Shown piece after piece: positions 8,605-26,979 of a stretch of DNA of 64,000 bases. The notes beneath the pieces were generated by a model. The model made no database searches. It was not told the origin of the DNA and saw nothing but the letters and a program-made list of their open reading frames with translations. Source of the stretch: a bacterium (GTDB lineage: Bacteria; Patescibacteriota; Microgenomatia; UBA1400; UBA12108); NCBI GenBank assembly GCA_021788365.1, contig JAJYKS010000003.1, positions 6,283 through 70,282 of the forward strand. The letters run 5' to 3'. Every line of letters starts with the position of its first letter. Positions within the stretch are counted from its first letter, which is position 1. Position numbers and translations under genes: made by a program.

Positions 8605-10542
8605 TCAGTTTGTCGGCTGAATCGGAGTGGAAACGGGGTTTGCTTGCGGGCCGGCATTCTGATTCGCTGGCACACTAGCCCGCTGATTTGCTGGTGTGCT
8701 ACCCGGCTGATTGTCCGGAATTTTGGCTGCCATGGCCACGGCTAGTTTTTGCTGCTTTGCCAAAAGTTCTCGAGGGTCGGTGGTGATTAGGCCATGCTCT
8801 TCTGGGGAGGCGACAACTTTTATGGCGACGTGGTTTTGGCCGGCGAAAAAAAGCGCTTCACCAACCTCGGCGGTGAGTAGCAAGTGTCGCTCTCCTTGGG
8901 AGAGATAGAAGACTTTAGCAAGGTTTTCTATCGCGGAAGTCGATTGTTTCATTAAAACCTGGATACTGCTGTTGCTGACGATAGCCTTCCCGTGGTCTGA
9001 TTTAAGAAAATCATCCACATCTTGTGTAATGGTGGTGAGCCCTAGAAAGTATTTGCGGGCTCGCTTGGCAATACTATAGAGAAAGTTGGCGGAGTCTTCG
9101 GATTTCATGAGGTACCAGGCCTCATCAACTACCAGTAAACGCCTCTTCATGTCGCGCTTTACCTTGGTCCAAATATAGTCAAGAATGATAAAGATGGCGG
9201 TTGGGCGCAGCTCGTCTTGAAGATTCTTAATACCAAACACTGTGAGTCTGTTTCCGAAGTTGACGTTTGATTTCTGTGAAAAAATGCCTTGAAAACTTCC
9301 CTTTACGTATTTTTCTAGCCTGTCTGCAAGGCCGCGGGCAACAGACTCTTCCATGCCAACAAGCGCCTTATATAAATCCTCCATGAGCGGTGGTTCTAGG
9401 TTGTGAGTTGCTGGGTCGCGCGTAATTCCCTTCATCTGATAGGTCATAACCAGCGCGCGGTCGAGGAGAGCTTCCTCGGTTGGGTTCATGTCGCCCATCA
9501 TGATTTTTAACAGTGAGTGGAGCGAGATGATTTTCATAGCGAGCTCGTTTTCATCCGGCTCAGCCATTTGTGGCAGCTCAAACGGATTTATACGATTTGG
9601 ACTGCTAAAGCTAAAATCAACATAGGTGCCACCCAGGGTTGTTGCAAGTTTGCGATACTCGTCTTCAGGGTCAATTGCAATAACCTCCGTGTCGAACAAC
9701 ATAGAGCGCAAAACCTCGAGTTTTACCATGTAGCTTTTGCCAGAACCGGATTTGGCAAACACAACCATGTTGGCGTTCTCTAGCGTAAAGCGATCAAAAA
9801 TAACGAGCGAGTCGTTGTGCTCATTGATGCCATACATAATCCCTTCATTTGCGGTCAGCTCACTTGAGGTGAAGGGAAAGGTGGTGGCAAGGCTCGTTGT
9901 GTCCATGTTGCGGTTAATTTTTAATTTGTCGAGGCCGGTGGGGAGCGTCGTCTTGAAGCCATCTTCTATTTGTAGCGTGGCAGTTTTGGCAACAATGAGG
10001 AGCGCGCCCAAAGCACTTTTTACTTGATTGGTCACCCGGTCGAGCATATCCTTTTTGTCGTCCCGGATCGTAACATAGAGTCCGAATTGAAAGAAGCGTT
10101 CGGCGCCCTTGGCGAGTTGTTCTTGTAGGGCGCGAGCATCTTCGAGCTTTACCTGAGTGTCAATGTTGACGATTCGGCCACGCTGGATGTCGCCCGCTAT
10201 TTCAGCCTCCATCTCGGCGATCTTGCGGCGCAAGTCTTCGATAACCCCTTTACCCTCTACTGGGTAAATAAACATAGAGATAGTAAGGCTGTGATTAAAG
10301 TTTATGAGTGGCGAAAGCCAGTTGGCGTTTACAAAGCGTGGGTAGCCGGCGACAAAGAGGGTGCGGTAGTAGGTATCGTTGATTTTAATATCGGAAAAAT
10401 CGACCTCAATGGCTTCTGGGGCGATAATGTCTTTGACGTTGGACGTTCCCTGTGAGAGAACTTGTACCGGCTGAGAGACGGCAGGGCCACTAGTATCGTC
10501 TTTCTTTTTCGGCATGAATGGAAAGGGCAGGTTAAGAGCCAT
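8605..10542 (-). CDS. VirB4/TrbE/CagE-like type IV secretion ATPase
   Basis: 645 aa with Walker A VVFAKSGSGKSYMVKLE, Walker B LLVVDEAW, and the N-terminal DUF87-like region typical of VirB4. The low-complexity C-terminal tail (PANQ repeats) is encoded by the octamer-periodic element. Confidence 0.8.
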   Translation of the reverse strand: MALNLPFPFMPKKKDDTSGPAVSQPVQVLSQGTSNVKDIIAPEAIEVDFSDIKINDTYYRTLFVAGYPRFVNANWLSPLINFNHSLTISMFIYPVEGKGVIEDLRRKIAEMEAEIAGDIQRGRIVNIDTQVKLEDARALQEQLAKGAERFFQFGLYVTIRDDKKDMLDRVTNQVKSALGALLIVAKTATLQIEDGFKTTLPTGLDKLKINRNMDTTSLATTFPFTSSELTANEGIMYGINEHNDSLVIFDRFTLENANMVVFAKSGSGKSYMVKLEVLRSMLFDTEVIAIDPEDEYRKLATTLGGTYVDFSFSSPNRINPFELPQMAEPDENELAMKIISLHSLLKIMMGDMNPTEEALLDRALVMTYQMKGITRDPATHNLEPPLMEDLYKALVGMEESVARGLADRLEKYVKGSFQGIFSQKSNVNFGNRLTVFGIKNLQDELRPTAIFIILDYIWTKVKRDMKRRLLVVDEAWYLMKSEDSANFLYSIAKRARKYFLGLTTITQDVDDFLKSDHGKAIVSNSSIQVLMKQSTSAIENLAKVFYLSQGERHLLLTAEVGEALFFAGQNHVAIKVVASPEEHGLITTDPRELLAKQQKLAVAMAAKIPDNQPGSTPANQRASVPANQNAGPQANPVSTPIQPTN

Positions 10543-10544
10543 AT

Positions 10545-10672
10545 CCTATCAGTATACCAGCTAGTCGGCGAGTCGGCGGGCCGGCATGTCGGCTTGTCAG
10601 CGAGGCCGGAAAACCGATGCACCGATTTAACTGATTGGCTGACTAGCTGATTTGCTGATTTGCCGACTATCT
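10545..10672. repeat. Octamer-periodic (NNGTCGGC)n / (GCTGATTT)n intergenic element, one of at least five copies
   Basis: TAGTCGGC GAGTCGGC GGGCCGGC ATGTCGGC TTGTCAGC ... GCTGATTT GCTGATTT GCCGACTA. It is flanked on the gene side by CAGTATAcc (TATACT -10 on the coding strand) 8 nt before the VirB4 ATG. Confidence 0.5.
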
Positions 10673-11305
10673 GGCCACGTTGGGGGCGACGACGGGCTGC
10701 TCGTAGTCGGCGGCGGTGCCAAATTTTTGCCCCTTTACCGTTGCGTTATAGAAGCTGTGAAAGAGGGACATAAGATTTTGGGTGTTGAGCTGGTTAGCTG
10801 TTAATCCAATGCGCGTTAGTTGCTTAATAATGTGATCGCGCTTTGGCTCGAGGTCGGCCTTCGCTTTGTCGATAAGACTTTGGTCTATTACCACCTTTCC
10901 TGAAAGGGTGATCATCTGATAGGAAATAACCACATAAAATTTTTTATCCAAAACATTCTGTTCGGTGATTGTTGTTTCCACAAACTGGCGGTACTTGTGC
11001 ATGCGGTCTTGCAAAACGGGATCGTGAAGCTTTTTCTCTTGTGTGCTTAGTAACTCGAGGTAGGAGCTAATGTCCTTTTTGTCGGATTTTACGACTATTT
11101 GGATGGGAAAACTAAGCGAATTTAGTAGGCCGGCATACGCGTAGATGGTGGCGTCTTGTTCTTCCTCAGAAAGCAGGCCAAAATTAATGGCGGAAGTAGA
11201 TATTAACATGCTGCAGGTGCCATTTTTTAATATAACGAGGTCATCTTGGATTGTTTCTACGTCGAGATGATCCTGAGTGGTTGCGACAATGACATTGTTG
11301 TCCAT
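10667..11305 (-). CDS. Hypothetical protein of the T4SS-like cluster
   Basis: 212 aa, soluble, no recognised motif. It is preceded by a TATACT leaderless-type promoter and an octamer array. Confidence 0.45.
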   Translation of the reverse strand: MDNNVIVATTQDHLDVETIQDDLVILKNGTCSMLISTSAINFGLLSEEEQDATIYAYAGLLNSLSFPIQIVVKSDKKDISSYLELLSTQEKKLHDPVLQDRMHKYRQFVETTITEQNVLDKKFYVVISYQMITLSGKVVIDQSLIDKAKADLEPKRDHIIKQLTRIGLTANQLNTQNLMSLFHSFYNATVKGQKFGTAADYEQPVVAPNVAR

Positions 11306-11437
11306 ACGGACTCAGTATATCAGTAGGTCGGCAAGTCAGCGAATCGGTTGGTCGGTATGTCGGCTTGCCAGTAATCGCCGAAACCTGGCTTACAGGTTTA
11401 GCTGGTTAGCTGACCCGCCGGTTTGCTGGTGTGCCGA

Positions 11438-12475
11438 TTATTGTGCTCGGAGGAGGATGGGGGGGATGATGTCTCCTTTGGTTGTCAGCGATTGTGGGGC
11501 GAACTTGAGACCATCCTTTTCCACTTCAATGGCATAGGAGCCGTTTCCGAGAGGTGTGGTGGTAAAAAACTGTCCAAGGCCGTTGGTTTTCATGGCGCGG
11601 GCGGGGATCCCGTCTCCCATCACTACCTGAACAATGGCGTTTTCTACTAGGTGCCCCCCTTTGTCGACGACTATTCCCGTTATCACATTGGGGATTTGGG
11701 GCGCGGCGGGCAGCTTAATTGTTGTCAGGGGGGTAGACGCAACTTTTGGCGCGGTAGTGGGGCTTGTGGGGCGGGAGAAAACCACATCAACCGTTGGCGG
11801 AGGGCTTTGTGGGGTTTTTGTGGGTGCTGCTGCAACGGTGGGTGTTGGCGTCACGGGGATCGATATCGTACGTAACGGTGGCGCGGGCGGGGTCGCCGCC
11901 GGAGACGGAGCGTTGTTATCGAATACTATACTTTTTGCTTTTAGTTTGCGGATTGTTACTGCGGGCTTGGCGCTACTGGTTTCGACGATGGTAACTGGTG
12001 GAACGGCGGGGGAGATGTGTACTTTCTGAAATAGCGCGTCGACCTCGTGGACCTGCTTTGCTTCTTCTGTCGAGAGGTCGCTTGTTACCGTTTTTCGTAC
12101 GGGAAGCGTTGGTGCTTTGAGTGTTTTTACCGCCGTAGGAGTATCTACAAAAATGTGGGCGGCGAAGGTAAACATTTCAGGAATGGTATTTGTCTTTTTC
12201 CAAACGAAACGGGTGGGGCCATAGATGGCTTTAACAAAATTAAGTGCCCAGATGTCCAGTGGACGATCTTCGAGTGGAAAGAATGCAAAGGCTATTCCAC
12301 CAAAAAGCGAGATGAGTGCGAGCGGCCACTTGAATATAAAAATCAGATTGCTCGCATAGAAAAGGTAGGCGACGAGCATCCCGGCAGCTAGTTCCAAAAA
12401 TTGTTTGAGCGTCATGTCTCCCACAAGGCGGAACTGATATTGTGTAACGTTCTGAGGAATGGGGTGTTGCTGCAT
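11438..12475 (-). CDS. PrgI/VirB3-like membrane protein with a Pro/Thr-rich linker and a C-terminal beta-sandwich (carboxypeptidase-regulatory-like) domain
   Basis: The N-terminus FRLVGDMTLKQFLELAAGMLVAYLFY plus two TM helices resembles PrgI-family VirB3 analogues. A long PT-rich spacer precedes the GIVVDKGGHLVENAIVQV...GSYAIEVEKDGL fold. The likely start is the ATG at 12473-12475 (MQQHPIP; the ORF-track start at 12499 is a TTG), with a TATACT box 6 nt upstream. Confidence 0.5.
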   Translation of the reverse strand: MQQHPIPQNVTQYQFRLVGDMTLKQFLELAAGMLVAYLFYASNLIFIFKWPLALISLFGGIAFAFFPLEDRPLDIWALNFVKAIYGPTRFVWKKTNTIPEMFTFAAHIFVDTPTAVKTLKAPTLPVRKTVTSDLSTEEAKQVHEVDALFQKVHISPAVPPVTIVETSSAKPAVTIRKLKAKSIVFDNNAPSPAATPPAPPLRTISIPVTPTPTVAAAPTKTPQSPPPTVDVVFSRPTSPTTAPKVASTPLTTIKLPAAPQIPNVITGIVVDKGGHLVENAIVQVVMGDGIPARAMKTNGLGQFFTTTPLGNGSYAIEVEKDGLKFAPQSLTTKGDIIPPILLRAQ

Positions 12476-12508
12476 GGCTCTAGTATACAGGGTTAACAAA
12501 AGAGAACA

Positions 12509-13183
12509 CTATTGTTGTGCTGCCGGCGATTCTGGAGAGGGTGAGGGTAGGGGTGATGGTGTGGGCGTTGGCGAGGGAGCTACAACGGTGTAGGCGTGGG
12601 TTGCCGGGTCTATCCCATGAGACTGTACCCAGGATTTGATCTGTGAAATTGCAGTCGCTTGGTCGAGGGTGTCGCTTTTTAGATCAATTTCGAGCGTGAG
12701 CGGGGCGCTATAAACAACTCGGTAGAGCGCTGTTTCGTATGGCGTGAACTGGGAGAGCGGGTAGTTTTTGTCGAGGTCTGATTGCAAACCTTGAAGATAG
12801 CGTGGGTCGTTTTGTTCATGAGCGGTAGTAAAACTAATGGTTCCGACGATTTGTCCCTTCTCATTAATCGTAACAGTATAATCGCTGGCGACCCTGAGGT
12901 ATAGTTGGTGGTCAAGCTCGATGGTGTTGGCATCCTTTTGTTGAATACTCCATAATTCTTCAGGGACAGAGGTCGCTGTAACATCGCTTGCGACGATTGG
13001 TTGATTGAAGACAATGATAATCGGACCAAAAACACTTGCTTCAGTTGTATGATTCCCCGGGGAGGAAGTGATGATTGCTGGTAGCGATGGGGCGGGCTTG
13101 GTTTTGTTGGATAAGTAGATTAGAGAGACAATAAATGCTACTCCGATTGCAACTGCCAACACGATTTTTATTTTTTGCTTCAT
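12509..13183 (-). CDS. Membrane-anchored/secreted hypothetical protein with a C-terminal Pro/Ser/Thr tail
   Basis: 224 aa with an N-terminal TM/signal anchor (KIVLAVAIGVAFIVSLIYL) and a C-terminal PSPTPTPSPLPSPSP tail. Confidence 0.45.
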   Translation of the reverse strand: MKQKIKIVLAVAIGVAFIVSLIYLSNKTKPAPSLPAIITSSPGNHTTEASVFGPIIIVFNQPIVASDVTATSVPEELWSIQQKDANTIELDHQLYLRVASDYTVTINEKGQIVGTISFTTAHEQNDPRYLQGLQSDLDKNYPLSQFTPYETALYRVVYSAPLTLEIDLKSDTLDQATAISQIKSWVQSHGIDPATHAYTVVAPSPTPTPSPLPSPSPESPAAQQ

Positions 13184-13192: not shown

Positions 13193-15973
13193 TTAGTCTT
13201 TTCGTAAATAACCAGTAATTTGTGCCTTTTCGAACTTTCCATTGGTGCGAGCTATTCCTGGGGCAGAGTAATTAGCGTCGCAAGCAGTAATAAGCGCTCC
13301 GGCGTCACCACAATCTACTCCTATGTGTCCCGGCGAGCCGTCACTACAACTACTAGATCCCATAACAAAGAAATCTCCAGGTCGCATGCCTGCTGTTCCT
13401 GAAATGTATTTATATCCGGAAGGGGCGTTGTTGACATATGAGCAAGCATTGATTTGGGGAAAATTTTGATTGTAGGCAAGTCCGGCCGTTGCAGCAACGA
13501 ACCCAACACATTGGAGGTGACCTGTCCCTATGGCGGAGGCCTCCAAGGCGTTTGCGGCCGCTTTTGCTAGGACTGCCACTAATTTTTGCCACCAAGAATT
13601 TCCAACCATGTCTTTAGTGAGGGGATTTAGGTTAAATTGGGTGAGGTAGCTAGCTATACATGCGGCGGCGTTTGCTGCTGGCGAACCAGTGGTTTGCGTT
13701 TGTGTCCCCTGTGTAGCATTACAAACGACAGCAGCAATATATGATGTGCCAGAGTCGAGCGGGGTAGTAACCTTGAGTGAATAGAAAAAGATACTGACTA
13801 CCGCGATTGCCCCCACGGCTATAAGCAATGCAGTATAGAACGTGATGACGAGAAAGTCCCAAACCAGTTTTCCAAGTGCCCTTAGTGTTTCCCAGGCCGC
13901 CATGAGCGGAACGGTAATCCCAGCAAATAATGCAAAAATACTGGCGATAAATAGTGGGACAACACCCCATAGATTGCTGGCGTCGCCATGGAAGATCGTG
14001 CCGAGGAATTTGGAGATCTTTCCGATGACCGACTTTCCAACCTCCCAGAGCACTTGTACTCCAAGGAGGATGAGGCCAATGCCCGCCTCACTTGTTGCCG
14101 CACCAATTATCTTGACAACCTTGTCTCCTAACCCGGCGGCAAACTTATTACCAGCAGAGGCTATTACTTTTGACACCGCCTTCCAGGTGGTTTTTTTGAA
14201 TACTCCCCAAGATTCAAATCCGGCACCCCGTGCGGTCCAGTCGAGAATGTTTCCCCATTTTTTTTCTAGAAAGAAAAAATTAGCCTGACGCCAACTCGCA
14301 TCGTTTTTGTAAAAGAGCTTAGAATATTGAGAGACCTGGCGGAAAAAGCCGGAGTACCATTTGTTTTTCTTCCCCAGGGTGGTGGACCACTTAAAGACTC
14401 TTAAAGCAATCCCTTTTTGCATGTTGATCCAGCCGTCATATATGAACTTCGACGGATTCAAGATGGGATACTTGTCTTGAAGCACAAACCAGGTGCTGGT
14501 GGGCCAGTGAATAACTTTGTCGACCTTTAGATATGCGCTGTATACTTTTGCTCTGAATTTATCTATAGGCTGCGTGGGGCGCCTCGTTGCGTTGAGATTG
14601 CCGGTGAGCTTGTCAAAAAATTCTCGTGCGGCATAGAAGGGGTTTCCGTCGATTTGCGAGTGGTAGAGGCCGTAGCTTTCCTGGGTGTTTATGAGCTGCG
14701 CGAGGTTCCCGAGCTTGCCTAAATCGGCGGCGTCCCCCTTGCCAAGTTCTTGTTGGTAGGCAAGTAAGGGATTATTGGTGTGATATTCGGCAAGTATGCT
14801 CGCGGCGAGAGCGTCTAACGTTGTCTTGTCTGTCCATGGAATTTCTGTACTTACCCCCGCGAGCGCTGCGATCCTGGCGGTAGCCATCTCGCGCTGATTT
14901 CTATCCTGCAACCTGGTTCCTGTGAGCCGCTCCAACGCCGAGGCCTGTATCTCCTCGACATAAGGGGAAAGTATTTCGAGGCGTGTTTCCAAGGTTGGAG
15001 ATCTAAACCCAGCGCTAGCTAGAGCCTCCTGAATAATGTCAGCCCCTGACATAGGATTTGTCGTTCCCGCGGTGACAATGACTTTGCGCAGAGAGCTGAC
15101 GAGCGCCCTTCGTTCGTTCACTGGTGCGTCGGGGAGTACGCTACGGACCATCGTGTCGAGGTCTGCAAGGGTTGGCGCAAAACTGGCGAGCGCACGGAGC
15201 CGGCCCATGTCGGCGAGGTATTCTGACTCGTCGGCATAGATAGCTTTTATGCGCGCGTTAATTGTCGTAGTAATTTGGGCAAGATCCTTTTCCATGGCGT
15301 CTGCGTGGAGACGGTGAGTAAAGGAGTTGATGTCTCCTTGGTTTGCGTGAGGAAGCAGAAGATTGCCGATTTTTGAGGGGAGGTCTTCTAATGCTTGTGG
15401 GGACGTATCGCGAAGATTATATGAATTGGCGGCGAGGATCGCGGCAACAAGGCTGCGATCTCGGGGACTTAGTCCGGCGAGAGCTTTGTTCATTTCAAGC
15501 TCGCTCGTCATTATCCCAAGGAATTTTCTGTTGAGGATTTCTAACGTTTTCCGTCTAAGCTCTAGAGACTTTTGTAGTGCTGCTGAGCGAGCGTCTGGAA
15601 CGTACTTGGTTGCCGGTATCAACGGGTGGGCAGCCTGCTCCTGCATGTAGGGATAGTTGGTGGCGGCTTTGGTACCTCCCGCGACGATGTTTTCGGCTTT
15701 TACTTCAAGATAACGGAGGAGGCTACGTGCACGAGCGTAGCTTGGGCCACGATCGCCAACGGGAAGGCCTATCTCGTCAGACCCCGCCCAAGCGGCGATA
15801 ATACCCCAGGCCGTTTCGGCGTCTAGAACGAGGGTGTCGGAGAACTCAACGCTCTGTCCATTTTTAATTCTGGACAGTAGTTGTTGGAGATACTTGGTAT
15901 CCTCTCCCTTTGCTTTGGTATTTAGGAGGGAAAGGATCAGCTGTCTTTGTGCGGCGGTGACGGTTGTTGCCAT
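13193..15973 (-). CDS. Large multi-domain protein with TM segments and a C-terminal CHAP (NlpC/P60-like) peptidoglycan hydrolase domain; VirB1-like function inferred
   Basis: 926 aa. A central hydrophobic block is followed by a C-terminus with catalytic-Cys/His spacing (LQCVGFVAATAGLAYNQ...GDFFVMG...PGHIGVDCG) characteristic of CHAP amidases. A leaderless-type TGtTAGAAT promoter lies 6 nt before the ATG. Confidence 0.55.
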   Translation of the reverse strand: MATTVTAAQRQLILSLLNTKAKGEDTKYLQQLLSRIKNGQSVEFSDTLVLDAETAWGIIAAWAGSDEIGLPVGDRGPSYARARSLLRYLEVKAENIVAGGTKAATNYPYMQEQAAHPLIPATKYVPDARSAALQKSLELRRKTLEILNRKFLGIMTSELEMNKALAGLSPRDRSLVAAILAANSYNLRDTSPQALEDLPSKIGNLLLPHANQGDINSFTHRLHADAMEKDLAQITTTINARIKAIYADESEYLADMGRLRALASFAPTLADLDTMVRSVLPDAPVNERRALVSSLRKVIVTAGTTNPMSGADIIQEALASAGFRSPTLETRLEILSPYVEEIQASALERLTGTRLQDRNQREMATARIAALAGVSTEIPWTDKTTLDALAASILAEYHTNNPLLAYQQELGKGDAADLGKLGNLAQLINTQESYGLYHSQIDGNPFYAAREFFDKLTGNLNATRRPTQPIDKFRAKVYSAYLKVDKVIHWPTSTWFVLQDKYPILNPSKFIYDGWINMQKGIALRVFKWSTTLGKKNKWYSGFFRQVSQYSKLFYKNDASWRQANFFFLEKKWGNILDWTARGAGFESWGVFKKTTWKAVSKVIASAGNKFAAGLGDKVVKIIGAATSEAGIGLILLGVQVLWEVGKSVIGKISKFLGTIFHGDASNLWGVVPLFIASIFALFAGITVPLMAAWETLRALGKLVWDFLVITFYTALLIAVGAIAVVSIFFYSLKVTTPLDSGTSYIAAVVCNATQGTQTQTTGSPAANAAACIASYLTQFNLNPLTKDMVGNSWWQKLVAVLAKAAANALEASAIGTGHLQCVGFVAATAGLAYNQNFPQINACSYVNNAPSGYKYISGTAGMRPGDFFVMGSSSCSDGSPGHIGVDCGDAGALITACDANYSAPGIARTNGKFEKAQITGYLRKD

Positions 15974-21478: not shown

Positions 21479-24286
21479 TTAGAATCCTGGTAGCTTAATA
21501 ATGCTGCCTGCCACTATTCGTAGTAGTACTCCCGCAAAAATAAGGAAGAGAAGACCCGTAACCGCGGCGGTGAAAAGCTCACGACCCTTCTTTATCTTTT
21601 CCTGATCTCCACCCGCAGTCATAATCTGTACTGTGCCCACGAACATGACAATTAAGGCAATCGCGCCCGCAATGCCACCCGCAAAGGTGAGGAGCACTGT
21701 TGTGAGACTACTCCCTATAGGGATGCATCCAAGTGCGGTGTCAATTGCATTCTCGCCACAGCGACCGTGAGGGTTGATGGTCCCCCTTGGTGAAAGTGTG
21801 GGTGTCGGTGCGGCTGACGCGGCTGCGCTCGCGTTTTGACTGGTTGCGAGATTGTAAACGGCGAGTGCGACGGCAAAGGCACCGGGACGATCATTCCCGT
21901 AGGGGGTCGGCTGGCCGGCCGTGAGATCACCATGATAAAGCAAATACATGTCTGTGTGACGAGCGTCTAGCATGTTGGTGGCGTAGGGGTCGTCGTCGCC
22001 AATAAACTGTCGCGGACAGCCACTGAAGGGTATGGGGAAGGGGTATCCCAGCTGGCAGTTGCTGTTCCCCCCACCGTTGAAGTCTGAGATATCGCCAATA
22101 AGTTCTTGGGTGTTGCTATGCGGATGATTCAGGAGTGTTTTCCCTGCGTTTATGGCAGATGTTTCTAATCCGCCATCTCGACTTGCGGCCCCACCATTTT
22201 GTACAGAAACGGTAGTGGGATCCCCGCCGTCGGTGAATGCGGAGCTTCCCTCTTCGAAGTGGATGCCGGCGATTACTTCGCAAGGGATACCCGTTGCTTG
22301 TTCTGCGGCAGCGTACGCTGACTCGAGTTTGGGATTTAGCTTGCCGTCAACAAACATGGCGGAATTTTTGACGACGTTTGTAGCCTCTAGAAGCGGTGCT
22401 TGCCAGGAAGAATCTTTAATAAGCGCTGCAAATTTGGTTCCGTCACAAAGTCCTGCGGTAGTTGTCGCCTGCTGACACCCTATACGCGTACCAAGCGCGT
22501 AAGCCTCTATTGAGGTTGAGAGCGGGGCGGAGTAGTCAGGATCGCTACAGGTAAATAAGCCCACCGCCCGCTGGGAGTTGGCTATGCTCATAGGCTTCCC
22601 GGCATAGGGAAAAACTCCCTGGTCGTTTACCGTATTAGACATGTTGCTGTTGTGCTCTGCTGCTTGTGTGAGGGTCGGCTCTGTGTCGCGGGTGTTATAG
22701 ACCATTTGTTGGAGGTCGGCTAAACTCTGACCCATCAAGTCAGGAATACTAAGATAGTGGAACGTTACCATGTCTACCATGTCGGTGGGGCGGGGATAGA
22801 TGGCGTTTAGGAAGTCCTGGATTATGTTGGATGTTGTGTACGCTCCACCGCTTTCTTTGGTCACATCGGCTGGTTGTATTTTATAACAGTCACTATCCAT
22901 AGAATCTTGATAGTCATAAATAAATCCTAGTTTGTTGAGCGTAAGTGGATTGTAGTTGTCCGCAACATAATGAAACGTTACGGGCTTGGTCGCGTCTCCA
23001 CATTTTACGACGTTGTCGTGGAGTTCGACGTCTAATTTCGCGGTGATTTTTGATGGTATGCCGGCAGGTAGTGTGCTTAAGAAGTATCTTGCGAGCGGGT
23101 TTTTAACAACAATGTCTTGAAAGATCTTCATTGCTTGGTCGAGTGGAAATGTAGTAAAGAGGTCATCCATGGCGGCAGCCCATGCCTGGTGAACCGTGGG
23201 GTCTGTATAGAGCGCTTTTGACTTTGCAAAATAGGGGAATGGACACTTTAATCCTGGGCAGCACCAAGCCCATAGACAAACTGATTTGCGCGTGTATCCA
23301 CGCTCGTTTGATGGGGGATACATGGGTGCTTGGGATAGGTCGACTGCCCAAGTGGCTGTAGGGTTTTCGTAGTAGGTGTTACAAAGGTCTTTTTCCGCCG
23401 CGGATGTGTCGATATTTTCACCCCCGAGGGTTGTTAGAAATTGCTCGTGGGCGTAGGTAATCCCATATGCGTCGCCACCGACGTTGCCCGGTAGTTCGCG
23501 AGCTATTTCGATCAAGGTCTTGCCATTTGGAGTCTGGAAATTCCAATTCACCCAGCCTAGGGGCCACTCCCCCGTGCCGGCGAGTGTGTCCTTTGTAAAC
23601 GCAGCCTGCTTTACCACAATGGCCTGCCGAACGAGGCGGTCACACATTGTCAGGGATAGGTCCAACATGCCGTTTGTGATTACATTGTCAGAACTTGAGT
23701 TGTAATCGTAGCGATATGCCTCGTTTTGTAGTTTGGGGTAGACGAGTACATTTCCCAATGAATCGGTAGGCGTTGTCGACGATGTGGACGATGAGTCGGG
23801 GCCAGTAGGGTTTGAGAAGTCGGTGCTTTGGACGGCGTCGCTACTCGTGGGTATACCTGTGTATTTACATTTTCCTTCGATGCTTGCAGGATCGACAGGG
23901 ATAAGCTTTCCATTGGCGTCGTACTCCTTGGGGATAACTTTTACACATTGCCCATGACGCCCGCCCATGACGTCTGATCTGGCCGTGTTATCGGTATTGT
24001 TGGTACAAAGATCTACCGGTCCGGTACAGTCTGTCTCGCTCTGGCATGTTTTGGCGCGCTGATCGTGGCATATGTGGAGCGGGGGATAGCGTCGATTGCG
24101 ATCCTGATTTTCGAAGACGATGAGGTTTGTTGGTTTAATAAAACGGTAGAGGGGAAAGAAGCTTTTGTAGAACTCATCGGTTGTCGGTTCTGCCGGATCG
24201 ATTGCAAATATCTTGGTGGCGTGGAGAAGGGACACAATGAGAAGGAGTAGTGTTGTAGCTAGGATGCGAAACCGTATCGAGCGCAT
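21479..24286 (-). CDS. Large secreted Cys-rich protein with a C-terminal VirB2-like pilin domain (candidate pilus tip / adhesin subunit)
   Basis: The likely start is the signal peptide MRSIRFRILATTLLLLIVSLLHA. The C-terminal ~75 aa (GIAGAIALIVMFVGTVQIMTAGGDQEKIKKGRELFTAAVTGLLFLIFAGVLLRIVAG) is paralogous to the small pilins and to the C-terminus of the 33339-33941 protein. The start is coupled to the upstream pilin gene through a TGAtATG junction. Confidence 0.55.
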   Translation of the reverse strand: MRSIRFRILATTLLLLIVSLLHATKIFAIDPAEPTTDEFYKSFFPLYRFIKPTNLIVFENQDRNRRYPPLHICHDQRAKTCQSETDCTGPVDLCTNNTDNTARSDVMGGRHGQCVKVIPKEYDANGKLIPVDPASIEGKCKYTGIPTSSDAVQSTDFSNPTGPDSSSTSSTTPTDSLGNVLVYPKLQNEAYRYDYNSSSDNVITNGMLDLSLTMCDRLVRQAIVVKQAAFTKDTLAGTGEWPLGWVNWNFQTPNGKTLIEIARELPGNVGGDAYGITYAHEQFLTTLGGENIDTSAAEKDLCNTYYENPTATWAVDLSQAPMYPPSNERGYTRKSVCLWAWCCPGLKCPFPYFAKSKALYTDPTVHQAWAAAMDDLFTTFPLDQAMKIFQDIVVKNPLARYFLSTLPAGIPSKITAKLDVELHDNVVKCGDATKPVTFHYVADNYNPLTLNKLGFIYDYQDSMDSDCYKIQPADVTKESGGAYTTSNIIQDFLNAIYPRPTDMVDMVTFHYLSIPDLMGQSLADLQQMVYNTRDTEPTLTQAAEHNSNMSNTVNDQGVFPYAGKPMSIANSQRAVGLFTCSDPDYSAPLSTSIEAYALGTRIGCQQATTTAGLCDGTKFAALIKDSSWQAPLLEATNVVKNSAMFVDGKLNPKLESAYAAAEQATGIPCEVIAGIHFEEGSSAFTDGGDPTTVSVQNGGAASRDGGLETSAINAGKTLLNHPHSNTQELIGDISDFNGGGNSNCQLGYPFPIPFSGCPRQFIGDDDPYATNMLDARHTDMYLLYHGDLTAGQPTPYGNDRPGAFAVALAVYNLATSQNASAAASAAPTPTLSPRGTINPHGRCGENAIDTALGCIPIGSSLTTVLLTFAGGIAGAIALIVMFVGTVQIMTAGGDQEKIKKGRELFTAAVTGLLFLIFAGVLLRIVAGSIIKLPGF

Positions 24287-24287: not shown

Positions 24288-24572
24288 TCAAAAACCAAAC
24301 TTAAACTGGGTAACCTGTACGCCGGTAATTGTTTGAATGGCGAGTAACACCAGCCATGAAATAATGGCAAGCGCAATCCCAACGACAGCGAGCGTGATAA
24401 TCTGTTTTCCCGCTTCGAGATTTTTTGTATCACTGCCGGCAGTTAGGATTTTAAATCCCCCCGAAAGAATCATTAGAAACGCGATGACTCCGATTAGGGG
24501 AATCGCTGCGGACAAGATGTTGCCAAAGTACGTGGGAAGGTCTGATAGTTGTGCTGCATCACCGACTGCCAT
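24288..24572 (-). CDS. VirB2/TrbC-like T4SS pilin paralogue 1
   Basis: 94 aa with two TM helices flanking the TAGSDTKNLEAGKQIITLAVVGIALAI motif. A TGCTATAAT box lies 6 nt before the ATG (leaderless). Confidence 0.65.
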   Translation of the reverse strand: MAVGDAAQLSDLPTYFGNILSAAIPLIGVIAFLMILSGGFKILTAGSDTKNLEAGKQIITLAVVGIALAIISWLVLLAIQTITGVQVTQFKFGF

Positions 24573-24754: not shown

Positions 24755-25105
24755 TTAGTAAGCTTTCGGGGGGTTGATGTTGCCATTCAATACTGAAATC
24801 CCGAAGAAGTATTGAATGATAAGCATTACAGCCCATGCGGAGGCAACGACGGCAAGACCAACCAAGGCGGCCGTTATGCGATCGCGTGCTTCTTGTGTCT
24901 TCCCCTTGTCACCACCAGAGGTGATCCACTGAATGCCACCCCAAATAAGGTAGGCAAAAACGAGCAGGGCGGCTATCAAGAGTGCGCCTTGGACGGCACC
25001 CTGAATGAGCGTGCCGATGTTGGTAATCTGGACGTTGTCAGGCTTGTTGACGGATAGGTCGGGGGCTGCTGGTGCTTGAGCTAGAGCTACTGGGATAAGA
25101 TTCAT
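24755..25105 (-). CDS. VirB2/TrbC-like T4SS pilin paralogue 2
   Basis: 116 aa with the GGIQWITSGGDKGKTQEARDRITAALVGLAVVASAW motif. It has its own TTGACA-N17-TAAACT promoter and a canonical SD AAAGGAGG. Confidence 0.7.
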   Translation of the reverse strand: MNLIPVALAQAPAAPDLSVNKPDNVQITNIGTLIQGAVQGALLIAALLVFAYLIWGGIQWITSGGDKGKTQEARDRITAALVGLAVVASAWAVMLIIQYFFGISVLNGNINPPKAY

Positions 25106-25162: not shown

Positions 25163-25468
25163 TTATTTTGTGATTCCGATGCCGAAGAAATAGTCGATGA
25201 GACGGAAGATGGCCCAGGATGCCGCTACGATGGCTAGACCCAAGATGGCGTTGGTAATGCGATTTCTTGCCTCTTCTAGCTTTCCCTTTTCGCCGCCCGA
25301 GGTTACCCATTGAACACCGCCGTAGATCATATAGATAAAGGTGGCGAGTCCTGCAACCATGATGACGGCGGAGATGGATTTTGAGACAAATGTGCCGAGC
25401 GAACTGTTAACGGCGACGCGAGACTGGACTTCACTGCCAATGTTTATGTCAAAGCTGCTTGCTGCCAT
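25163..25468 (-). CDS. VirB2/TrbC-like T4SS pilin paralogue 3
   Basis: 101 aa with GGVQWVTSGGEKGKLEEARNRITNAILGLAIVAASW. An SD AAGGA lies 8 nt upstream. Confidence 0.7.
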   Translation of the reverse strand: MAASSFDINIGSEVQSRVAVNSSLGTFVSKSISAVIMVAGLATFIYMIYGGVQWVTSGGEKGKLEEARNRITNAILGLAIVAASWAIFRLIDYFFGIGITK

Positions 25469-25535: not shown

Positions 25536-25913
25536 TCAACCCGCTGTTGGCCACTTAACGTTTAATAGGTCGATCCCGAGTGCTGCTTGGAGGAATTTGA
25601 TAATGACATATGAGGCAACGAGAATGGCGAGACCAATCAGGCCCTGTGTGATGTGGTTCTTTGCGTCTTCTAATTTACTCTTTTCGCCGCCAGAGAGGAT
25701 CCAGTTTACCGCCCCCCAGAGGAAGTACATCATGAATGCGAGACCACCGACAATAATGATTGTTTGCCATAGGGTACCAACGGTTACGGCAAATTGTTTC
25801 CCCTGATCTCCGCCACCCCCACCCGGAACGGCGACGTTGGTTATTGTGGCATGAGCGACTGTAGGAGATAGGAGGTAGGAGATGGGAGATAGGAAGGCAA
25901 TGAGTTTTTTCAT
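25536..25913 (-). CDS. VirB2/TrbC-like T4SS pilin paralogue 4
   Basis: 125 aa with a signal peptide and GAVNWILSGGEKSKLEDAKNHITQGLIGLAILVASY. A TAAtATG junction couples it to the upstream gene. Confidence 0.7.
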   Translation of the reverse strand: MKKLIAFLSPISYLLSPTVAHATITNVAVPGGGGGDQGKQFAVTVGTLWQTIIIVGGLAFMMYFLWGAVNWILSGGEKSKLEDAKNHITQGLIGLAILVASYVIIKFLQAALGIDLLNVKWPTAG

Positions 25914-25914
25914 A

Positions 25915-26271
25915 TTATTTAAAGGTCATACTTTGGATAAGTGTGCCTGGATTCAGAATGTCGACACCTAGGGCTTTCCCAACGATCCATACAATGGAGT
26001 AAGAAACGGTAATGATGATCATTCCAATGGCGCCATTGGTCATCATGTTTTTGGCGTTTTCGATCTTATCTTTTTTGCCACCGGCTGTAATCCAGTTGAG
26101 TCCACCCATGAGAAACCAGAGAGTAAAGGCAAGCCCGCCTACGATGGTCAGGATGGCAAGAGAGTTGCTGATGATTTTTTCGAGTGGGTTAGTGTAGGCG
26201 GCGACACCAGAGCCACCACCGGGCTGGTATCCGCCGGGAGTTGTGATTTGGCTAAAGTTTATATTTGCCAT
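25915..26271 (-). CDS. VirB2/TrbC-like T4SS pilin paralogue 5
   Basis: 118 aa with GGLNWITAGGKKDKIENAKNMMTNGAIGMIIITVSY. Confidence 0.7.
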   Translation of the reverse strand: MANINFSQITTPGGYQPGGGSGVAAYTNPLEKIISNSLAILTIVGGLAFTLWFLMGGLNWITAGGKKDKIENAKNMMTNGAIGMIIITVSYSIVWIVGKALGVDILNPGTLIQSMTFK

Positions 26272-26272
26272 G

Positions 26273-26614
26273 TTAGTAGCTCCCCGGACCCGTGATACTG
26301 GGCTGCAGAATGGCGGTTGCGGAACCGAAAAGTAGGAAGCTGACGACGCCGGTTATGGCGGCTGCAGCGACCATGACTATGAGGCCAATCAGCGACATAT
26401 TGATGGATGAAATGGCTTGTTCTATCTTCTTTTGGTCGCCATTGCTGGTTATGTAGGTGAAACCGGCGTACATGAGATTGAAAAAGGCAAAAAGGCCAGC
26501 AGCGGCGAAGATAACCTTAACTACGTTGGAGATGAAAAGGGGAAGGCCAGTGTTGACCGAGCCATAACTCGTGGACGGTAAAGGGTTGTTGATGCCACCA
26601 AATACACTTGCCAT
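26273..26614 (-). CDS. VirB2/TrbC-like T4SS pilin paralogue 6
   Basis: 113 aa with AGFTYITSNGDQKKIEQAISSINMSLIGLIVMVAAA. Confidence 0.65.
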   Translation of the reverse strand: MASVFGGINNPLPSTSYGSVNTGLPLFISNVVKVIFAAAGLFAFFNLMYAGFTYITSNGDQKKIEQAISSINMSLIGLIVMVAAAAITGVVSFLLFGSATAILQPSITGPGSY

Positions 26615-26622
26615 AGGCGCTA

Positions 26623-26979
26623 TTATAAACCACTGTTGAGGATCTGCACTCCTGTAACAACTTGAATAATCTGGATGATCCAGTATGATCCGAAAAGTAC
26701 CAATAAACCAACTAACGCAGATGTGATGATTTTACTTCCTTCTTTGGTTTTTTCTGAGTTCCCAGCGTTTGCGACAATGGTAAAGCCGCCGAACACGATC
26801 ATAAAAAAGATAACAAGGCCAGCAGCAACGTAGACGTTGGGGAGGATGGCGTTTATCAGCTTGCTTGCATTGGGGTAGGTAGAGGTGGCAGTGGAATTGC
26901 CCTGGAACAGAAGCTTGTCGCCGAGATTGAAACCAGTAGCGGCCATAGTGAGGAAATTATAGCAGGTTGAGCTGGCCAA
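26623..26979 (-). CDS. VirB2/TrbC-like T4SS pilin paralogue 7 (first gene of the operon)
   Basis: 118 aa with GGFTIVANAGNSEKTKEGSKIITSALVGLLVLFGSY. A TGCTATAAT box lies 9 nt before the ATG. Confidence 0.65.
   Translation of the reverse strand: MASSTCYNFLTMAATGFNLGDKLLFQGNSTATSTYPNASKLINAILPNVYVAAGLVIFFMIVFGGFTIVANAGNSEKTKEGSKIITSALVGLLVLFGSYWIIQIIQVVTGVQILNSGL

What the first reader, a model, noticed from the sequence alone, without database searches (positions are those of the whole stretch)
8605..26979. Type IV secretion / conjugative-pilus-like gene cluster next to the replication origin
About 18 kb of almost purely minus-strand genes encode, in order:
- a VirB4-like ATPase with Walker A/B motifs;
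- a PrgI/VirB3-like two-TM protein;
- a 926-aa protein ending in a CHAP (Cys/His) peptidoglycan-hydrolase domain, plausibly VirB1-like;
- a VirB6-like polytopic protein with a signal peptide;
- a 984-aa secreted Cys-rich protein;
- seven tandem small pilin-like genes.
A 1114-aa motif-less protein is transcribed divergently from the middle of the cluster. No VirD4 coupling ATPase or relaxase is visible, which argues for a pilus or adhesion/host-interaction apparatus rather than a DNA-transfer system. The hydrolase and PrgI resemble Gram-positive conjugation systems, the pilins resemble VirB2/TrbC, and the whole sits in what looks like an ultra-small (CPR-like) genome. The composition is therefore unusual and largely uncharacterised.
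Basis: partly seen in the sequence, partly recalled or inferred. Interest (0 to 1): 0.8.

Follow-up and report, generated by a model that had tools for sequence, protein, structure and literature searches.

The report
Patescibacterial type IV secretion gene cluster
This is the chromosomal type IV secretion and pilus gene cluster that ultra-small, host-dependent Patescibacteria (here a Collierbacteria-like Microgenomate) carry next to dnaA; the system is already described in the literature, but this copy shows two details I did not find there: a pilin fused to a lysozyme-like domain, and an embedded giant gene that is swapped between close relatives.

Summary
Window 8605-26979 encodes:
- a VirB4 ATPase of the Gram-positive (CD1110/MPF-FATA) type, with its N-terminal domain on a separate TrsD-like gene
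- a PrgI/VirB3 protein
- a membrane protein ending in a CHAP domain
- a polytopic VirB6 candidate, supported by topology and position only
- seven VirB2-like pilin paralogues
- a 935-aa secreted protein ending in an eighth pilin domain

No relaxase or coupling ATPase lies in the 64 kb window, and the neighbours are housekeeping genes. The source is a public Microgenomates MAG (GCA_027372535.1).

This architecture is already published for Patescibacteria: MPF-FATA-like VirB4, TrsD, PrgI, pilin arrays, no relaxase, next to dnaA/dnaN (PMC12102498). Its Saccharibacteria version is essential for epibiotic growth (PMC10633639). I therefore call it a new member of a known kind.

Three points I did not find in those papers:
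2. The antisense 1114-aa gene sits in a positionally conserved slot. At least two sequence-unrelated families of large cytoplasmic proteins occupy that slot, and the occupant differs even in a relative with 96% identical VirB4.
3. Three probably leaderless extended -10 promoters head the transcription units.

The cargo of the machine remains unknown.

The parts
8605..10542 (-). VirB4-type ATPase (645 aa) that lacks the usual N-terminal domain. Walker A is GSGKS and Walker B is LLVVDEAW.
   Evidence: NCBIfam NF045971 conju_CD1110 scores 404.9 bits (cut-off 325), over profile positions 180-734 of 752. Pfam P-loop_TraG gives 6.7e-29. PDB 4ag5 gives 5.6e-45. More than 8000 homologues were found, up to 94% identical. 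dN/dS is 0.018.
10667..11305 (-). TrsD-like protein (212 aa): the VirB4 N-terminal domain encoded as a separate gene.
   Evidence: It matches positions 8-171 of conju_CD1110 (3.2e-8), VirB4_plasma (1.4e-8) and TrsD NF041427 (2.2e-5, below that model's cut-off). A separate 211-213 aa ORF is present in the relatives at 77-97% identity.
11438..12499 (-). PrgI/VirB3-like two-helix membrane protein, with a Pro-rich linker and a C-terminal CarboxypepD_reg-like beta-sandwich (353 aa ORF; annotated as 345 aa).
   Evidence: Pfam PrgI scores 27.7 bits (cut-off 27) and CarboxypepD_reg gives 1.7e-5. Hydrophobic helices lie at 37-70.
12509..13183 (-). Bitopic exported protein with a Big_5 Ig-like domain (224 aa).
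   Evidence: Pfam Big_5 scores 25.1 bits (cut-off 23.6). There is an N-terminal hydrophobic anchor at 7-25. It is syntenic in the relatives.
13193..15973 (-). 926-aa protein made of a ~620-aa N-terminal region without signal peptide or TM helix, about 3 TM helices, and a C-terminal CHAP peptidoglycan amidase/peptidase domain. This is the VirB1-like function.
   Evidence: Pfam CHAP hits 4 of 8 orthologues (best 1.8e-6). The QCVGF and GH(I/V)G motifs are conserved. TM segments lie at 619-726. The 5' 2.3 kb is 95% identical at nucleotide level to relative L019, against ~76-84% for the flanks.
15974..16020 (.). 47-bp divergent control region holding two back-to-back extended -10 boxes. TGGTATAAT ends 7 nt before the 1114-aa gene's ATG. 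TGTTAGAAT, on the other strand, ends 6 nt before the 926-aa gene's ATG. Both transcripts are probably leaderless.
   Evidence: Read directly from the sequence. TGnTAnAAT close upstream of the called start of the slot gene (7-9 nt in seven loci, flush with it in L011 and L014) recurs in nine loci spanning the slot families. This is an inference; no transcript data exist.
16021..19365 (+). 1114-aa soluble, highly charged, mostly alpha-helical protein of unknown fold. It is encoded antisense inside the cluster, in the 'slot'.
19362..20963 (-). Polytopic membrane protein and VirB6 candidate (533-aa ORF; the likely start is 20912, giving 516 aa). It has a signal peptide, a ~130-aa exported region and at least 6 TM helices.
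   Evidence: Topology. It is 54-67% identical across 11 relatives, always at this position. No VirB6/TrbL/PrgH match by Pfam, NCBIfam, a PDB profile search, hhalign or tblastn on plasmids. The VirB6 assignment is therefore an inference.
20933..21475 (-). 180-aa bitopic protein (N-terminal anchor plus a ~110-aa exported domain). It is a positional candidate for a VirB8-like role, untested.
   Evidence: TM helix at 18-36. Present in 8 relatives at 34-44% identity. No similarity to pCF10 PrgL or to PDB sequences.
21479..24286 (-). 935-aa secreted protein made of a signal peptide, a Cys-rich region, a lysozyme/lytic-transglycosylase-like domain (~residues 610-820) and a C-terminal T4SS pilin domain. 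The longest ORF runs on to 24433 (984 aa).
24288..24572 (-). Pilin paralogue 0 (94 aa), a VirB2-like helix-loop-helix.
   Evidence: PF18895 gives 7.2e-7, 29.6 bits (cut-off 26.6). NF045849 mycoplasma ICE pilin-like gives 1.6e-4.
24755..25105 (-). Pilin paralogue 1 (116 aa).
   Evidence: PF18895 gives 6.4e-10. NF045849 gives 2.5e-6. Orthologues are 77-87% identical.
25163..25468 (-). Pilin paralogue 2 (101 aa).
   Evidence: PF18895 gives 3.2e-8. NF045849 gives 1.2e-6.
25536..25913 (-). Pilin paralogue 3 (125 aa). It is the only one with a classical N-terminal signal peptide.
   Evidence: PF18895 gives 5.1e-6, 26.9 bits.
25915..26271 (-). Pilin paralogue 4 (118 aa).
   Evidence: PF18895 gives 1.8e-6.
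26273..26614 (-). Pilin paralogue 5 (113 aa).
   Evidence: PF18895 gives 7e-10. NF045849 gives 5.7e-6.
26623..26979 (-). Pilin paralogue 6. The likely start is the ATG at 26946 (107 aa), preceded by the extended -10 box TGCTATAAT, which ends 9 nt upstream.
   Evidence: PF18895 gives 2.6e-5, 24.6 bits (just below the cut-off). The annotated product is 107 aa.
27105..27689 (+). ECF-type sigma-70 factor, divergent from the pilin array. It is a conserved neighbour and a candidate regulator.
   Evidence: Pfam Sigma70_r2 gives 9.9e-13 and r4_2 gives 3.3e-7. It occupies the same position in the seven relatives whose contig extends beyond the pilin array.

Best explanation

Shown here by homology:
- A cytoplasmic VirB4 motor of the monoderm CD1110/MPF-FATA type, split into a TrsD-like N-domain protein and a 645-aa ATPase.
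- A PrgI/VirB3 membrane partner.
- A membrane protein ending in an exported CHAP peptidoglycan peptidase.
- Seven VirB2-like pilin paralogues.
- An eighth pilin domain carried at the C-terminus of a 935-aa secreted protein whose body contains a lysozyme/lytic-transglycosylase-like fold.

Inferred:
- The conserved polytopic 516/533-aa protein is the VirB6-type channel subunit.
- The small bitopic proteins (180 aa and 224 aa) are envelope-spanning accessory parts.
- VirB4, with PrgI and the channel protein, extracts pilins from the membrane and polymerises them into a tube or pilus.
- The CHAP domain opens the cell's own wall.
- The pilin-anchored lysozyme-like head is carried on the filament and cuts the wall of the cell it touches.
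- The machine therefore builds a contact or conduit to a host cell. It is not a conjugation apparatus, because no relaxase or coupling ATPase accompanies it and it is a fixed, syntenic part of the chromosome.

What passes through it, and in which direction, is not known. I lean towards macromolecule traffic with the host: export of proteins such as the variable 'slot' protein, or import of host material.

The cluster is organised as three units: pilins to channel protein, the antisense slot gene, and CHAP protein to VirB4. Each unit is headed by an extended -10 box 6-9 nt before its ATG.
For: Component identities:
- VirB4, with the split N-domain.
- PrgI.
- CHAP.
- Pilins.
- Pilin fusion with a lysozyme-like fold.

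Chromosomal and vertical inheritance:
- The source is a 580-kb MAG contig.
- The neighbours are dnaA, dnaN, yidC, and mevalonate, SUF and TsaD genes.
- GC content is uniform at 0.47-0.54.
- The same gene order occurs in 13 species-level genomes of the Microgenomates group.
- Strong purifying selection acts on the core: dN/dS is 0.009-0.05 for TrsD, VirB4 and the channel protein.
- No relaxase or T4CP lies in the 64 kb window.

Pilin paralogues:
- They are 18-45% identical to one another.
- Each of pil1-pil6 has a best match of about 55-87% identity (pil0 60-73% where found) in the same order in other genomes.
- The paralogues are therefore old and individually maintained, as expected for distinct structural roles.

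Literature:
- The same architecture, its proximity to dnaA and its lack of a relaxase are described across Patescibacteria (PMC12102498).
- The Saccharibacteria cluster, including its pilin array, is essential for epibiotic growth (PMC10633639; supplementary tables read).
- Tubular structures suggested to be T4SS pili were seen at a parasite-host interface (bioRxiv 10.64898/2026.06.21.733656).
Against: - No sequence method recognises the channel candidate as VirB6 or the 180-aa protein as VirB8.
- The lysozyme-like assignment rests on a medium-confidence model (mean pLDDT 56, about 70-89 in that domain) and on a non-significant sequence profile match (E about 1).
- Nothing here shows that a pilus is made, that the genes are expressed, or what the substrate is.
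- Only 64 kb of a genome of at least 580 kb was examined. A VirD4-like gene could lie elsewhere: the survey paper finds such genes far from virB4 in many Patescibacteria.
- The promoter and leaderless-transcript calls are consensus matches only. The generic promoter scan was not enriched over shuffled sequence.
Confidence: 0.8

Rival explanations
1. It is a working conjugative DNA-transfer system, on an integrated element or mobilising the chromosome, whose relaxase and coupling protein are encoded elsewhere in the genome.
For: The VirB4 passes the cut-off of an NCBIfam 'conjugal transfer ATPase' equivalog. All recognisable parts descend from monoderm conjugation machinery. T4CP genes far from virB4 are reported in many Patescibacteria (PMC12102498).
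Against: There is no relaxase, T4CP, integrase or oriT-like context in 64 kb. The cluster sits at the same chromosomal place, between dnaN and a sigma factor, in 13 genomes. Base composition is uniform. Relaxases were found in only 103 Patescibacteria genomes in the survey, and the T4CP homologue was not essential in S. epibionticum while the T4SS genes were (PMC12102498).
Confidence: 0.06
2. It is an import machine: a T4CP-less T4SS, working like Helicobacter ComB or archaeal Ced, that takes up host nucleic acids to feed a cell that cannot make nucleotides.
For: The absence of VirD4 and relaxase alongside a pilin-bearing VirB4 system parallels ComB. VirB4 also gives a weak match to the CedB DNA-import model (1.8e-14, far below its cut-off). 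The uptake idea is raised in PMC11665869 and in the 2026 preprint on feeding on host RNA.
Against: No DNA- or RNA-binding or nuclease component is recognisable in the cluster. ComB's other defining parts (VirB7, VirB9, VirB10) are absent. Nothing in the sequence speaks to the direction of transport. This rival differs from the best explanation only in cargo and direction.
Confidence: 0.25
3. It makes only an adhesive filament: a pilus used for attachment, with no channel function.
For: There are eight pilin domains, one of which carries a large Cys-rich exported head. Exported Ig-like and beta-sandwich domains are present. No coupling ATPase is present.
Against: Two cell-wall-cutting activities and a strongly conserved polytopic channel-like protein are more than adhesion needs. 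In Saccharibacteria, adhesion and motility are attributed to separate type IV pili (PMC10633639, PMC12857230).
Confidence: 0.15

Closest known systems
T4SS of Candidatus Southlakia epibionticum ML1 (Saccharimonadia), SEML1_0005-0019 (Wang et al. 2023, PMC10633639)
   Same: - It lies beside dnaA and dnaN.
- It has VirB4, an adjacent TrsD-like gene and PrgI.
- It has large proteins of about 1000 aa.
- It has cell-wall hydrolases.
- It has an array of sequence-divergent VirB2-like pilins (six there, seven plus one fused here).
- It has no relaxase or T4CP in the cluster.

   Different: - Gene order and strand layout differ. There the pilins are divergent from the rest; here they are co-directional, and a single giant gene is antisense.
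- The Se hydrolases are a separate 643-aa lysozyme/Cys-proteinase protein and a 1113-aa protein with a DD-peptidase end. Here the lysozyme-like fold is fused to a pilin and the CHAP domain to a membrane protein.
- The Se VirB6-like protein is 1088 aa and is recognisable by structure. Here the candidate is 516 aa and unrecognised.
- An NTF2/VirB8-like protein is seen there and not shown here.
- Essentiality has been tested only there.
Patescibacteria-clade T4SS as catalogued by Quinonero-Coronel et al. 2025 (PMC12102498)
   Same: The window matches every general feature reported:
- VirB4 related to MPF-FATA
- TrsD as a frequent partner
- PrgI
- VirB2 arrays of 2-11 genes, abundant in Microgenomatia, with ~25% mean identity (18-45% here)
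- scarce VirB6 detection in Microgenomatia
- no relaxase
- dnaA and dnaN nearby
   Different: The paper's text, as searched, does not mention pilin-domain fusions, a lysozyme-like pilin-anchored protein, or a variable antisense gene slot. It interprets pilin arrays as possible variation for host range. Here each of pil1-pil6 has a best match of about 55-87% identity, in the same order, in other genomes.
Monoderm conjugative T4SS of the MPF-FATA class (pCF10 PrgF-PrgL/PcfC; CTn2 CD1110 family)
   Same: VirB4 of the CD1110 family scores above the curated cut-off. A PrgI-type VirB3 is present. The wall hydrolase chemistry, SLT-like plus CHAP, is the same as in PrgK.
   Different: - pCF10 has its VirB4 in one piece.
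- pCF10 has SLT and CHAP in one protein.
- pCF10 has PrgH and PrgL, to which no similarity was detected here.
- pCF10 has a VirD4-like PcfC, a relaxase and LPXTG adhesins, and no pilin array.
Mycoplasma ICE T4SS (Mbov_0395 pilin-like protein, Mbov_0397 VirB4)
   Same: All seven small pilins give their only NCBIfam match to the Mbov_0395 pilin-like family over nearly its full length (E 1e-6 to 1e-2). The VirB4 and TrsD-like proteins match the Mbov_0397 model.
   Different: All these matches are below the curated cut-offs, so the proteins are relatives, not members. Mycoplasma ICEs are mobile elements in wall-less cells and have a single pilin-like gene.
VirB2/VirB5 pili of diderm T4SS (Agrobacterium VirB, R388 Trw, F)
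   Same: The pilins are small helix-loop-helix proteins with a basic loop. There is a VirB4-dependent assembly machine with VirB3 and a VirB6-like partner. A larger specialised subunit could sit at the filament end as VirB5 does.
   Different: There are no outer-membrane core proteins (VirB7, VirB9, VirB10), and no VirB11 or VirB5 homologue. The pilins match PF18895, not PF04956. The candidate tip subunit is a pilin fusion, not a VirB5 fold.

Membership tests
Type IV secretion system (VirB4-based) | VirB4-family ATPase with Walker A and B motifs | tested here: met
   NF045971 scores 404.9 bits (cut-off 325). PF19044 gives 6.7e-29. PDB 4ag5 gives 5.6e-45. Both motifs are in the sequence.
Type IV secretion system (VirB4-based) | VirB3/PrgI small membrane partner adjacent to VirB4 | tested here: met
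   PF12666 scores 27.7 bits against a cut-off of 27. It has two TM helices and lies two genes from VirB4.
Type IV secretion system (VirB4-based) | VirB6/TrbL/PrgH polytopic channel subunit | tested here: inconclusive
   A conserved polytopic protein is present. It has no Pfam or NCBIfam hit in 11 orthologues even at E <= 1, no PDB profile hit, no hhalign similarity to PrgH, and no tblastn hit on plasmids.
Type IV secretion system (VirB4-based) | VirB8-like bitopic NTF2-fold protein | tested here: inconclusive
   The 180-aa bitopic candidate shows no similarity to PrgL or to PDB sequences. Its fold was not modelled.
Type IV secretion system (VirB4-based) | VirB1-like peptidoglycan hydrolase | tested here: met
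Type IV secretion system (VirB4-based) | VirB2-like pilin | tested here: met
   PF18895 scores above the gathering score for 6 of the 7 small ORFs. The seventh ORF and the fusion protein score just below it.
Conjugative element (plasmid or ICE) | Relaxase and type IV coupling protein (VirD4/TcpA) | tested here: not met
   No such Pfam domain occurs in any ORF of 250 aa or more in the 64 kb window. The rest of the genome was not searched.
Conjugative element (plasmid or ICE) | Mobile context: integrase, variable insertion site, atypical composition | tested here: not met
   The neighbours are housekeeping genes, the location is the same in 13 genomes, and GC is uniform.
Patescibacteria-clade T4SS (PMC12102498) | Host genome is a Patescibacterium | tested here: met
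   The source is MAG GCA_027372535.1. The nearest named relatives are Collierbacteria and the Microgenomates group.
Patescibacteria-clade T4SS (PMC12102498) | VirB4 falls in the monophyletic Patescibacteria clade, sister to MPF-FATA | not tested
   No phylogeny was built. Indirect support: the best curated model is the MPF-FATA CD1110 family, and the few homologues that carry an organism name (4 of the 120 listed) are Collierbacteria, Microgenomates group or unclassified MAGs.
Patescibacteria-clade T4SS (PMC12102498) | TrsD-like gene next to virB4, a pilin array, and proximity to dnaA and dnaN | tested here: met
ComB-type DNA-uptake T4SS | VirB7, VirB9 and VirB10 envelope core together with VirB2-4, 6 and 8 | tested here: not met
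   No VirB7, VirB9 or VirB10 family hit in the cluster. A functional analogy is not excluded.
Type IV pilus (T4P) | PilB/PilT ATPases and prepilins with an N-methylation motif | tested here: not met
   No such Pfam families were hit. The pilin N-termini lack the G/FTLxE motif.

The most novel reading that the evidence does not exclude
The antisense 'slot' gene (16021-19365) is a polymorphic, horizontally exchanged cassette. The large, soluble, charged proteins it encodes would be the translocated substrates, or the host-specificity determinants, of the Patescibacteria T4SS.

Supporting observations:
- At least two families without detectable homology occupy the same 3-4 kb antisense position, under a conserved, probably leaderless promoter.
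- The allele differs completely between genomes whose VirB4 is 96% identical.
- The adjacent 2.3 kb is 95% identical at nucleotide level, which points to recent recombination at this spot.

A companion reading is that the pilin-anchored lysozyme-like protein is the piercing tip of the filament.
Probability: 0.2. Interest if true: 0.7.

Novelty: new member of a known kind. Interest (0 to 1): 0.4.

Why it matters
The Patescibacteria T4SS is thought to be central to how a very large group of ultra-small bacteria live on other microbes. It is essential in the one species tested, yet its cargo and mechanism are unknown.

This locus does not change that picture. It does give a cleanly resolved Microgenomates example with testable leads:
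- A pilin fused to a wall-cutting domain suggests how a monoderm pilus could breach a host wall.
- A recombining, multi-allelic cytoplasmic protein embedded in the operon is a concrete candidate for a secreted effector or specificity factor.
- Pilin paralogues conserved one-to-one argue for a heteromeric filament rather than antigenic variation.

Tried and rejected
- **PDB sequence searches.** The 926-, 935/984- and 1114-aa proteins, and profiles of the VirB6-candidate and 180-aa families, gave nothing meaningful. A designer-PPR hit and a designed TM protein were discarded as compositional.
- **hhalign against pCF10 proteins.** Family alignments compared with single pCF10 sequences (PrgH, PrgL, PrgK) gave no signal. 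Even CHAP against CHAP gave none, so this test is insensitive rather than negative.
- **VirB6 candidate.** Pfam over all 11 orthologues at E <= 1, and tblastn against 72,556 plasmids, found nothing.
- **926-aa against 1114-aa family profiles.** No paralogy was detected.
- **Metagenome scan.** A scan of JGI metagenome contigs for relatives of the 1114-aa protein found none. The wider alignment was too divergent to seed a scan.
- **Generic promoter and terminator scan.** Counts were not above the shuffled controls.
- **GC skew.** No switch at dnaA within the window, so the origin call rests on DnaA boxes.
- **'VirB4 split is a frameshift artefact'.** Rejected: the separate TrsD-like ORF is conserved in the relatives.
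- **'Plasmid or ICE segment'.** Rejected on context and synteny.

Full report
**What is there**

The window comes from a public metagenome-assembled genome: GCA_027372535.1, contig DAHXIW010000001.1, 579,774 bp. The few homologues that carry an organism name are labelled Candidatus Collierbacteria or Microgenomates group, inside the Patescibacteria.

From 8605 to 26979, almost all coding is on the minus strand. In order of transcription:
- Seven small genes run from 26979 down to 24288.
- A 935-aa gene lies at 24286-21479. Its longest ORF, 984 aa, overlaps the last small gene. The annotated and orthologue-supported start is the downstream ATG.
- A 180-aa gene follows.
- A 516/533-aa polytopic gene ends at 19362.
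- A 1114-aa gene on the plus strand (16021-19365) comes next. Its stop overlaps the previous gene's stop by 4 nt.
- Then, on the minus strand again, come a 926-aa gene, a 224-aa gene, a 353-aa gene, a 212-aa gene and a 645-aa gene that ends at 8605.
- dnaN and dnaA follow immediately.

**Identity of the parts**

*VirB4 and its split N-domain.*
- The 645-aa protein is a VirB4 ATPase. It passes the curated cut-off of NCBIfam's 'VirB4-like conjugal transfer ATPase, CD1110 family' (404.9 against 325 bits). It hits Pfam P-loop_TraG (6.7e-29) and the solved VirB4-like domain 4ag5 (5.6e-45).
- The match covers only positions 180-734 of the 752-position model. The missing N-terminal part is supplied by the neighbouring 212-aa ORF, which matches positions 8-171 of the same model and the TrsD family.
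- The split is not an assembly artefact. The separate ORF is conserved at 77-97% identity in relatives.

*PrgI and the Ig-like protein.* The 353-aa protein passes Pfam's PrgI threshold. It has a two-helix hairpin, followed by a proline-rich linker and a CarboxypepD_reg-like domain. The 224-aa protein is a membrane-anchored Big_5 Ig-like protein.

*The 926-aa protein.* It has about 620 residues with no signal peptide or TM helix, then about three TM helices, then a domain that is CHAP. Four of eight orthologues hit Pfam CHAP (best 1.8e-6), and the Cys (QCVGF) and His (GHIG) motifs are conserved.

*The pilins.*
- The seven small proteins all match PF18895 'T4SS pilin', six of them above the gathering score.
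- They share a helix, basic loop, helix design.
- Their only NCBIfam match is the mycoplasma ICE 'Mbov_0395 pilin-like' family. The matches are sub-threshold but near full-length.

*The VirB6 candidate.* The 516/533-aa protein has a signal peptide and at least six TM helices, and it is well conserved (54-67%). It is the obvious VirB6 candidate. But nothing I could run recognises it: Pfam or NCBIfam on the window copy and Pfam on 11 orthologues, a profile search of PDB sequences, hhalign against pCF10 PrgH, and tblastn on plasmids. This agrees with the published remark that VirB6 is scarcely detectable in Microgenomatia.

**The 935-aa protein**

- Pfam sees only a C-terminal T4SS pilin domain, in the window copy and in 5 of 10 orthologues. 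This makes it an eighth pilin carrying a large N-terminal extension.
- An AlphaFold2 model from 20 homologues is poor overall (pLDDT 56) but confident over residues 205-330, 370-430 and 610-820.
- Independently, a sequence profile of residues 600-830 picks MltC, FlgJ and SltB as its top four among 177,635 PDB sequences. These sit only at E about 1. The family's invariant Glu aligns on the MltC 'QTES' motif.
- Two divergent orthologues carry GAMQI and GPYQF motifs typical of this fold.
- I therefore regard a lysozyme/lytic-transglycosylase-like domain as likely, though not proven.
- In pCF10, the SLT and CHAP domains sit together in PrgK (and established knowledge of that system). Here they are divided between a pilin-anchored protein and a membrane protein.

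**The 1114-aa protein and its slot**

*The protein itself.*
- It has no family, no TM helix, no signal peptide and no Walker motif.
- It is rich in both acidic and basic residues.
- It is predicted to be mostly helical (pLDDT 66), with only generic helix-bundle structural matches.
- It is extremely rare in databases: 3 hits among 5.8 billion proteins, and 11 in an exhaustive HMMER profile search of 1.84 billion cluster representatives.

*The slot in relatives.*
- All the related genomes examined whose contig reaches this position have a large (889-1306 aa), soluble, similarly charged ORF there, on the opposite strand and tightly packed between the VirB6 candidate and the 926-aa homologue.
- These ORFs fall into at least two groups, plus one singleton. 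Neither profile-profile comparison nor an iterated HMM search connects the groups.
- None of the 16 tested carries a Pfam domain.

*Allele replacement and recombination.*
- The distribution does not follow genome relatedness. In contig L019, dnaA is 93%, VirB4 95.6% and TrsD 96.7% identical in protein to the window. Even so, its slot gene cannot be aligned at nucleotide level and belongs weakly to the other group.
- The adjacent 2.3 kb (the 5' part of the 926-aa gene) is 95% identical in DNA, against 76-84% elsewhere. Identity breaks about 28 nt upstream of the slot gene's ATG. That pattern indicates recombination at this point.

*Promoters.*
- An extended -10 box (TGnTAnAAT) ends 7-8 nt before the ATG and is conserved across slot families.
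- A mirror-image box (TGTTAGAAT) ends 6 nt before the 926-aa gene's ATG.
- A third box (TGCTATAAT) ends 9 nt before the first pilin's ATG.
- I infer three transcription units with leaderless or near-leaderless messages. This is a reading of the sequence, not a measurement.

**Conservation gradient**

Across the relatives, identity falls steadily from the cytoplasmic machinery to the exposed or variable parts:

| Component | Identity to relatives |
|---|---|
| VirB4 | 72-94% |
| TrsD | 77-80% |
| VirB6 candidate | 54-67% |
| Individual pilins | about 55-87% |
| PrgI | 48-53% |
| 935-aa protein | 24-49% |
| 926-aa protein | 24-33% |
| Slot protein | 23-48%, or none |

The pilin paralogues are only 18-45% identical to each other. 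Yet each of pil1-pil6 has a best match at roughly 55-87% identity, in the same order, in other genomes (pil0 60-73% where detected). The array is therefore an old set of distinct subunits, not a recent amplification.

**Context**

- No relaxase, coupling ATPase or integrase domain occurs in any ORF of 250 aa or more in the 64 kb window.
- The neighbours are yidC, dnaA, dnaN, an ECF-type sigma factor, mevalonate-pathway genes, SUF genes and tRNA-modification genes.
- Perfect DnaA boxes lie at 5789 and 7223, and four boxes cluster at 7223-7356 between dnaA and dnaN. GC skew shows no sign change in the window. 'Beside dnaA and a DnaA-box cluster' is therefore shown, while 'beside the origin' is inferred.

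**Comparison with what is known**

- The system is published. Wang et al. 2023 (PMC10633639) found an apparent T4SS next to dnaA in the Saccharibacterium S. epibionticum. It includes an essential pilin array and no coupling protein or relaxase, and it is required for epibiotic growth.
- Quinonero-Coronel et al. 2025 (PMC12102498) catalogued it across Patescibacteria. They report a distinct VirB4 clade related to MPF-FATA, TrsD as the commonest partner, PrgI, VirB2 arrays of 2-11 genes especially in Microgenomatia and Saccharimonadia, rare relaxases, and proximity to dnaA and dnaN.
- A 2025 review lists it as a new T4SS type with potential pili in monoderms (PMC12857230).
- Its function is described as completely unknown (PMC11665869).
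- A 2026 preprint shows tubular structures at a parasite-host interface and suggests they are T4SS pili.
- The window is thus a new member of a known kind. I did not find the pilin-lysozyme fusion, the multi-allelic antisense slot or the one-to-one conservation of pilin paralogues in those texts. They are modest additions, and they rest on bioinformatic inference.

**Mechanism and confidence**

I am confident (about 0.8 overall) that this is a chromosomal, non-conjugative Patescibacteria T4SS that builds a pilin-based surface structure and remodels cell wall.

Steps shown by homology:
- the motor
- its VirB3 partner
- the CHAP hydrolase
- the pilins
- the pilin fusion

Steps inferred:
- the channel subunit
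- polymerisation of the pilins into a filament
- placement of the lysozyme-like head on the filament
- contact with a host
- any cargo

Import of host material, export of proteins (including the slot protein), and pure adhesion all remain open.

Noticed in passing
window 7222-7464: The 80-aa ORF between dnaA and dnaN (annotated as a 76-aa CDS in the MAG) coincides with a cluster of four DnaA boxes at 7223-7356, one of them perfect. The stretch may be oriC rather than a gene.
   Followed up: partly
window 15974-16020, 26947-26970; loci L001, L006, L009, L011, L014, L017, L019, L021: Extended -10 boxes (TGnTAnAAT) end 6-9 nt before the ATG of the first gene of each of three units, with no Shine-Dalgarno sequence. 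This suggests leaderless transcripts, and the pattern is conserved in relatives.
   Followed up: partly
window 13720-16035 vs L019 1689-4004: A 2.3-kb segment (the 5' part of the 926-aa gene) is 95% identical in DNA to a relative whose other genes are 76-84% identical. dS is 0.34 there against 1.2-2.2 elsewhere. This is a recent recombination tract ending at the slot gene.
   Followed up: partly
window 27105-27689: An ECF-type sigma-70 factor lies divergent from the pilin array in the seven relatives whose contig extends beyond the array. It is a possible dedicated regulator of the cluster.
   Followed up: no
L006 6731-9678: One relative carries three extra ORFs (212, 283 and 474 aa) inserted between the 180-aa gene and the VirB6 candidate. 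They have no similarity to window proteins.
   Followed up: no
L009 6561-10177: In this relative the slot protein is split into two ORFs of 981 and 224 aa. Both align to single longer proteins elsewhere, so this is a frameshift or a genuine split.
   Followed up: no
loci L005, L012-L016 (record titles): Several GTDB/ENA records holding this CPR-type cluster are titled 'uncultured Pseudomonadales bacterium'. This is evidently a mislabelled taxonomy.
   Followed up: no
window 39125-39529 and 44695-44777: A tmRNA gene (97 bits) and one tRNA gene, both on the minus strand.
   Followed up: no
window 29282-32159: Three consecutive GHMP-kinase / diphosphomevalonate decarboxylase genes, that is, mevalonate-pathway enzymes, in a reduced genome.
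   Followed up: no
window 36714-38504 and 51494-52753: Two further sizeable ORFs (596 and 419 aa) have no Pfam family.
   Followed up: no
window 24288-26979 vs NCBIfam NF045849: All seven pilins are distantly similar to the pilin-like protein of mycoplasma ICEs. A monoderm precedent for T4SS pilin-like proteins therefore exists, and the pilins need not have been borrowed from diderm systems.
   Followed up: partly
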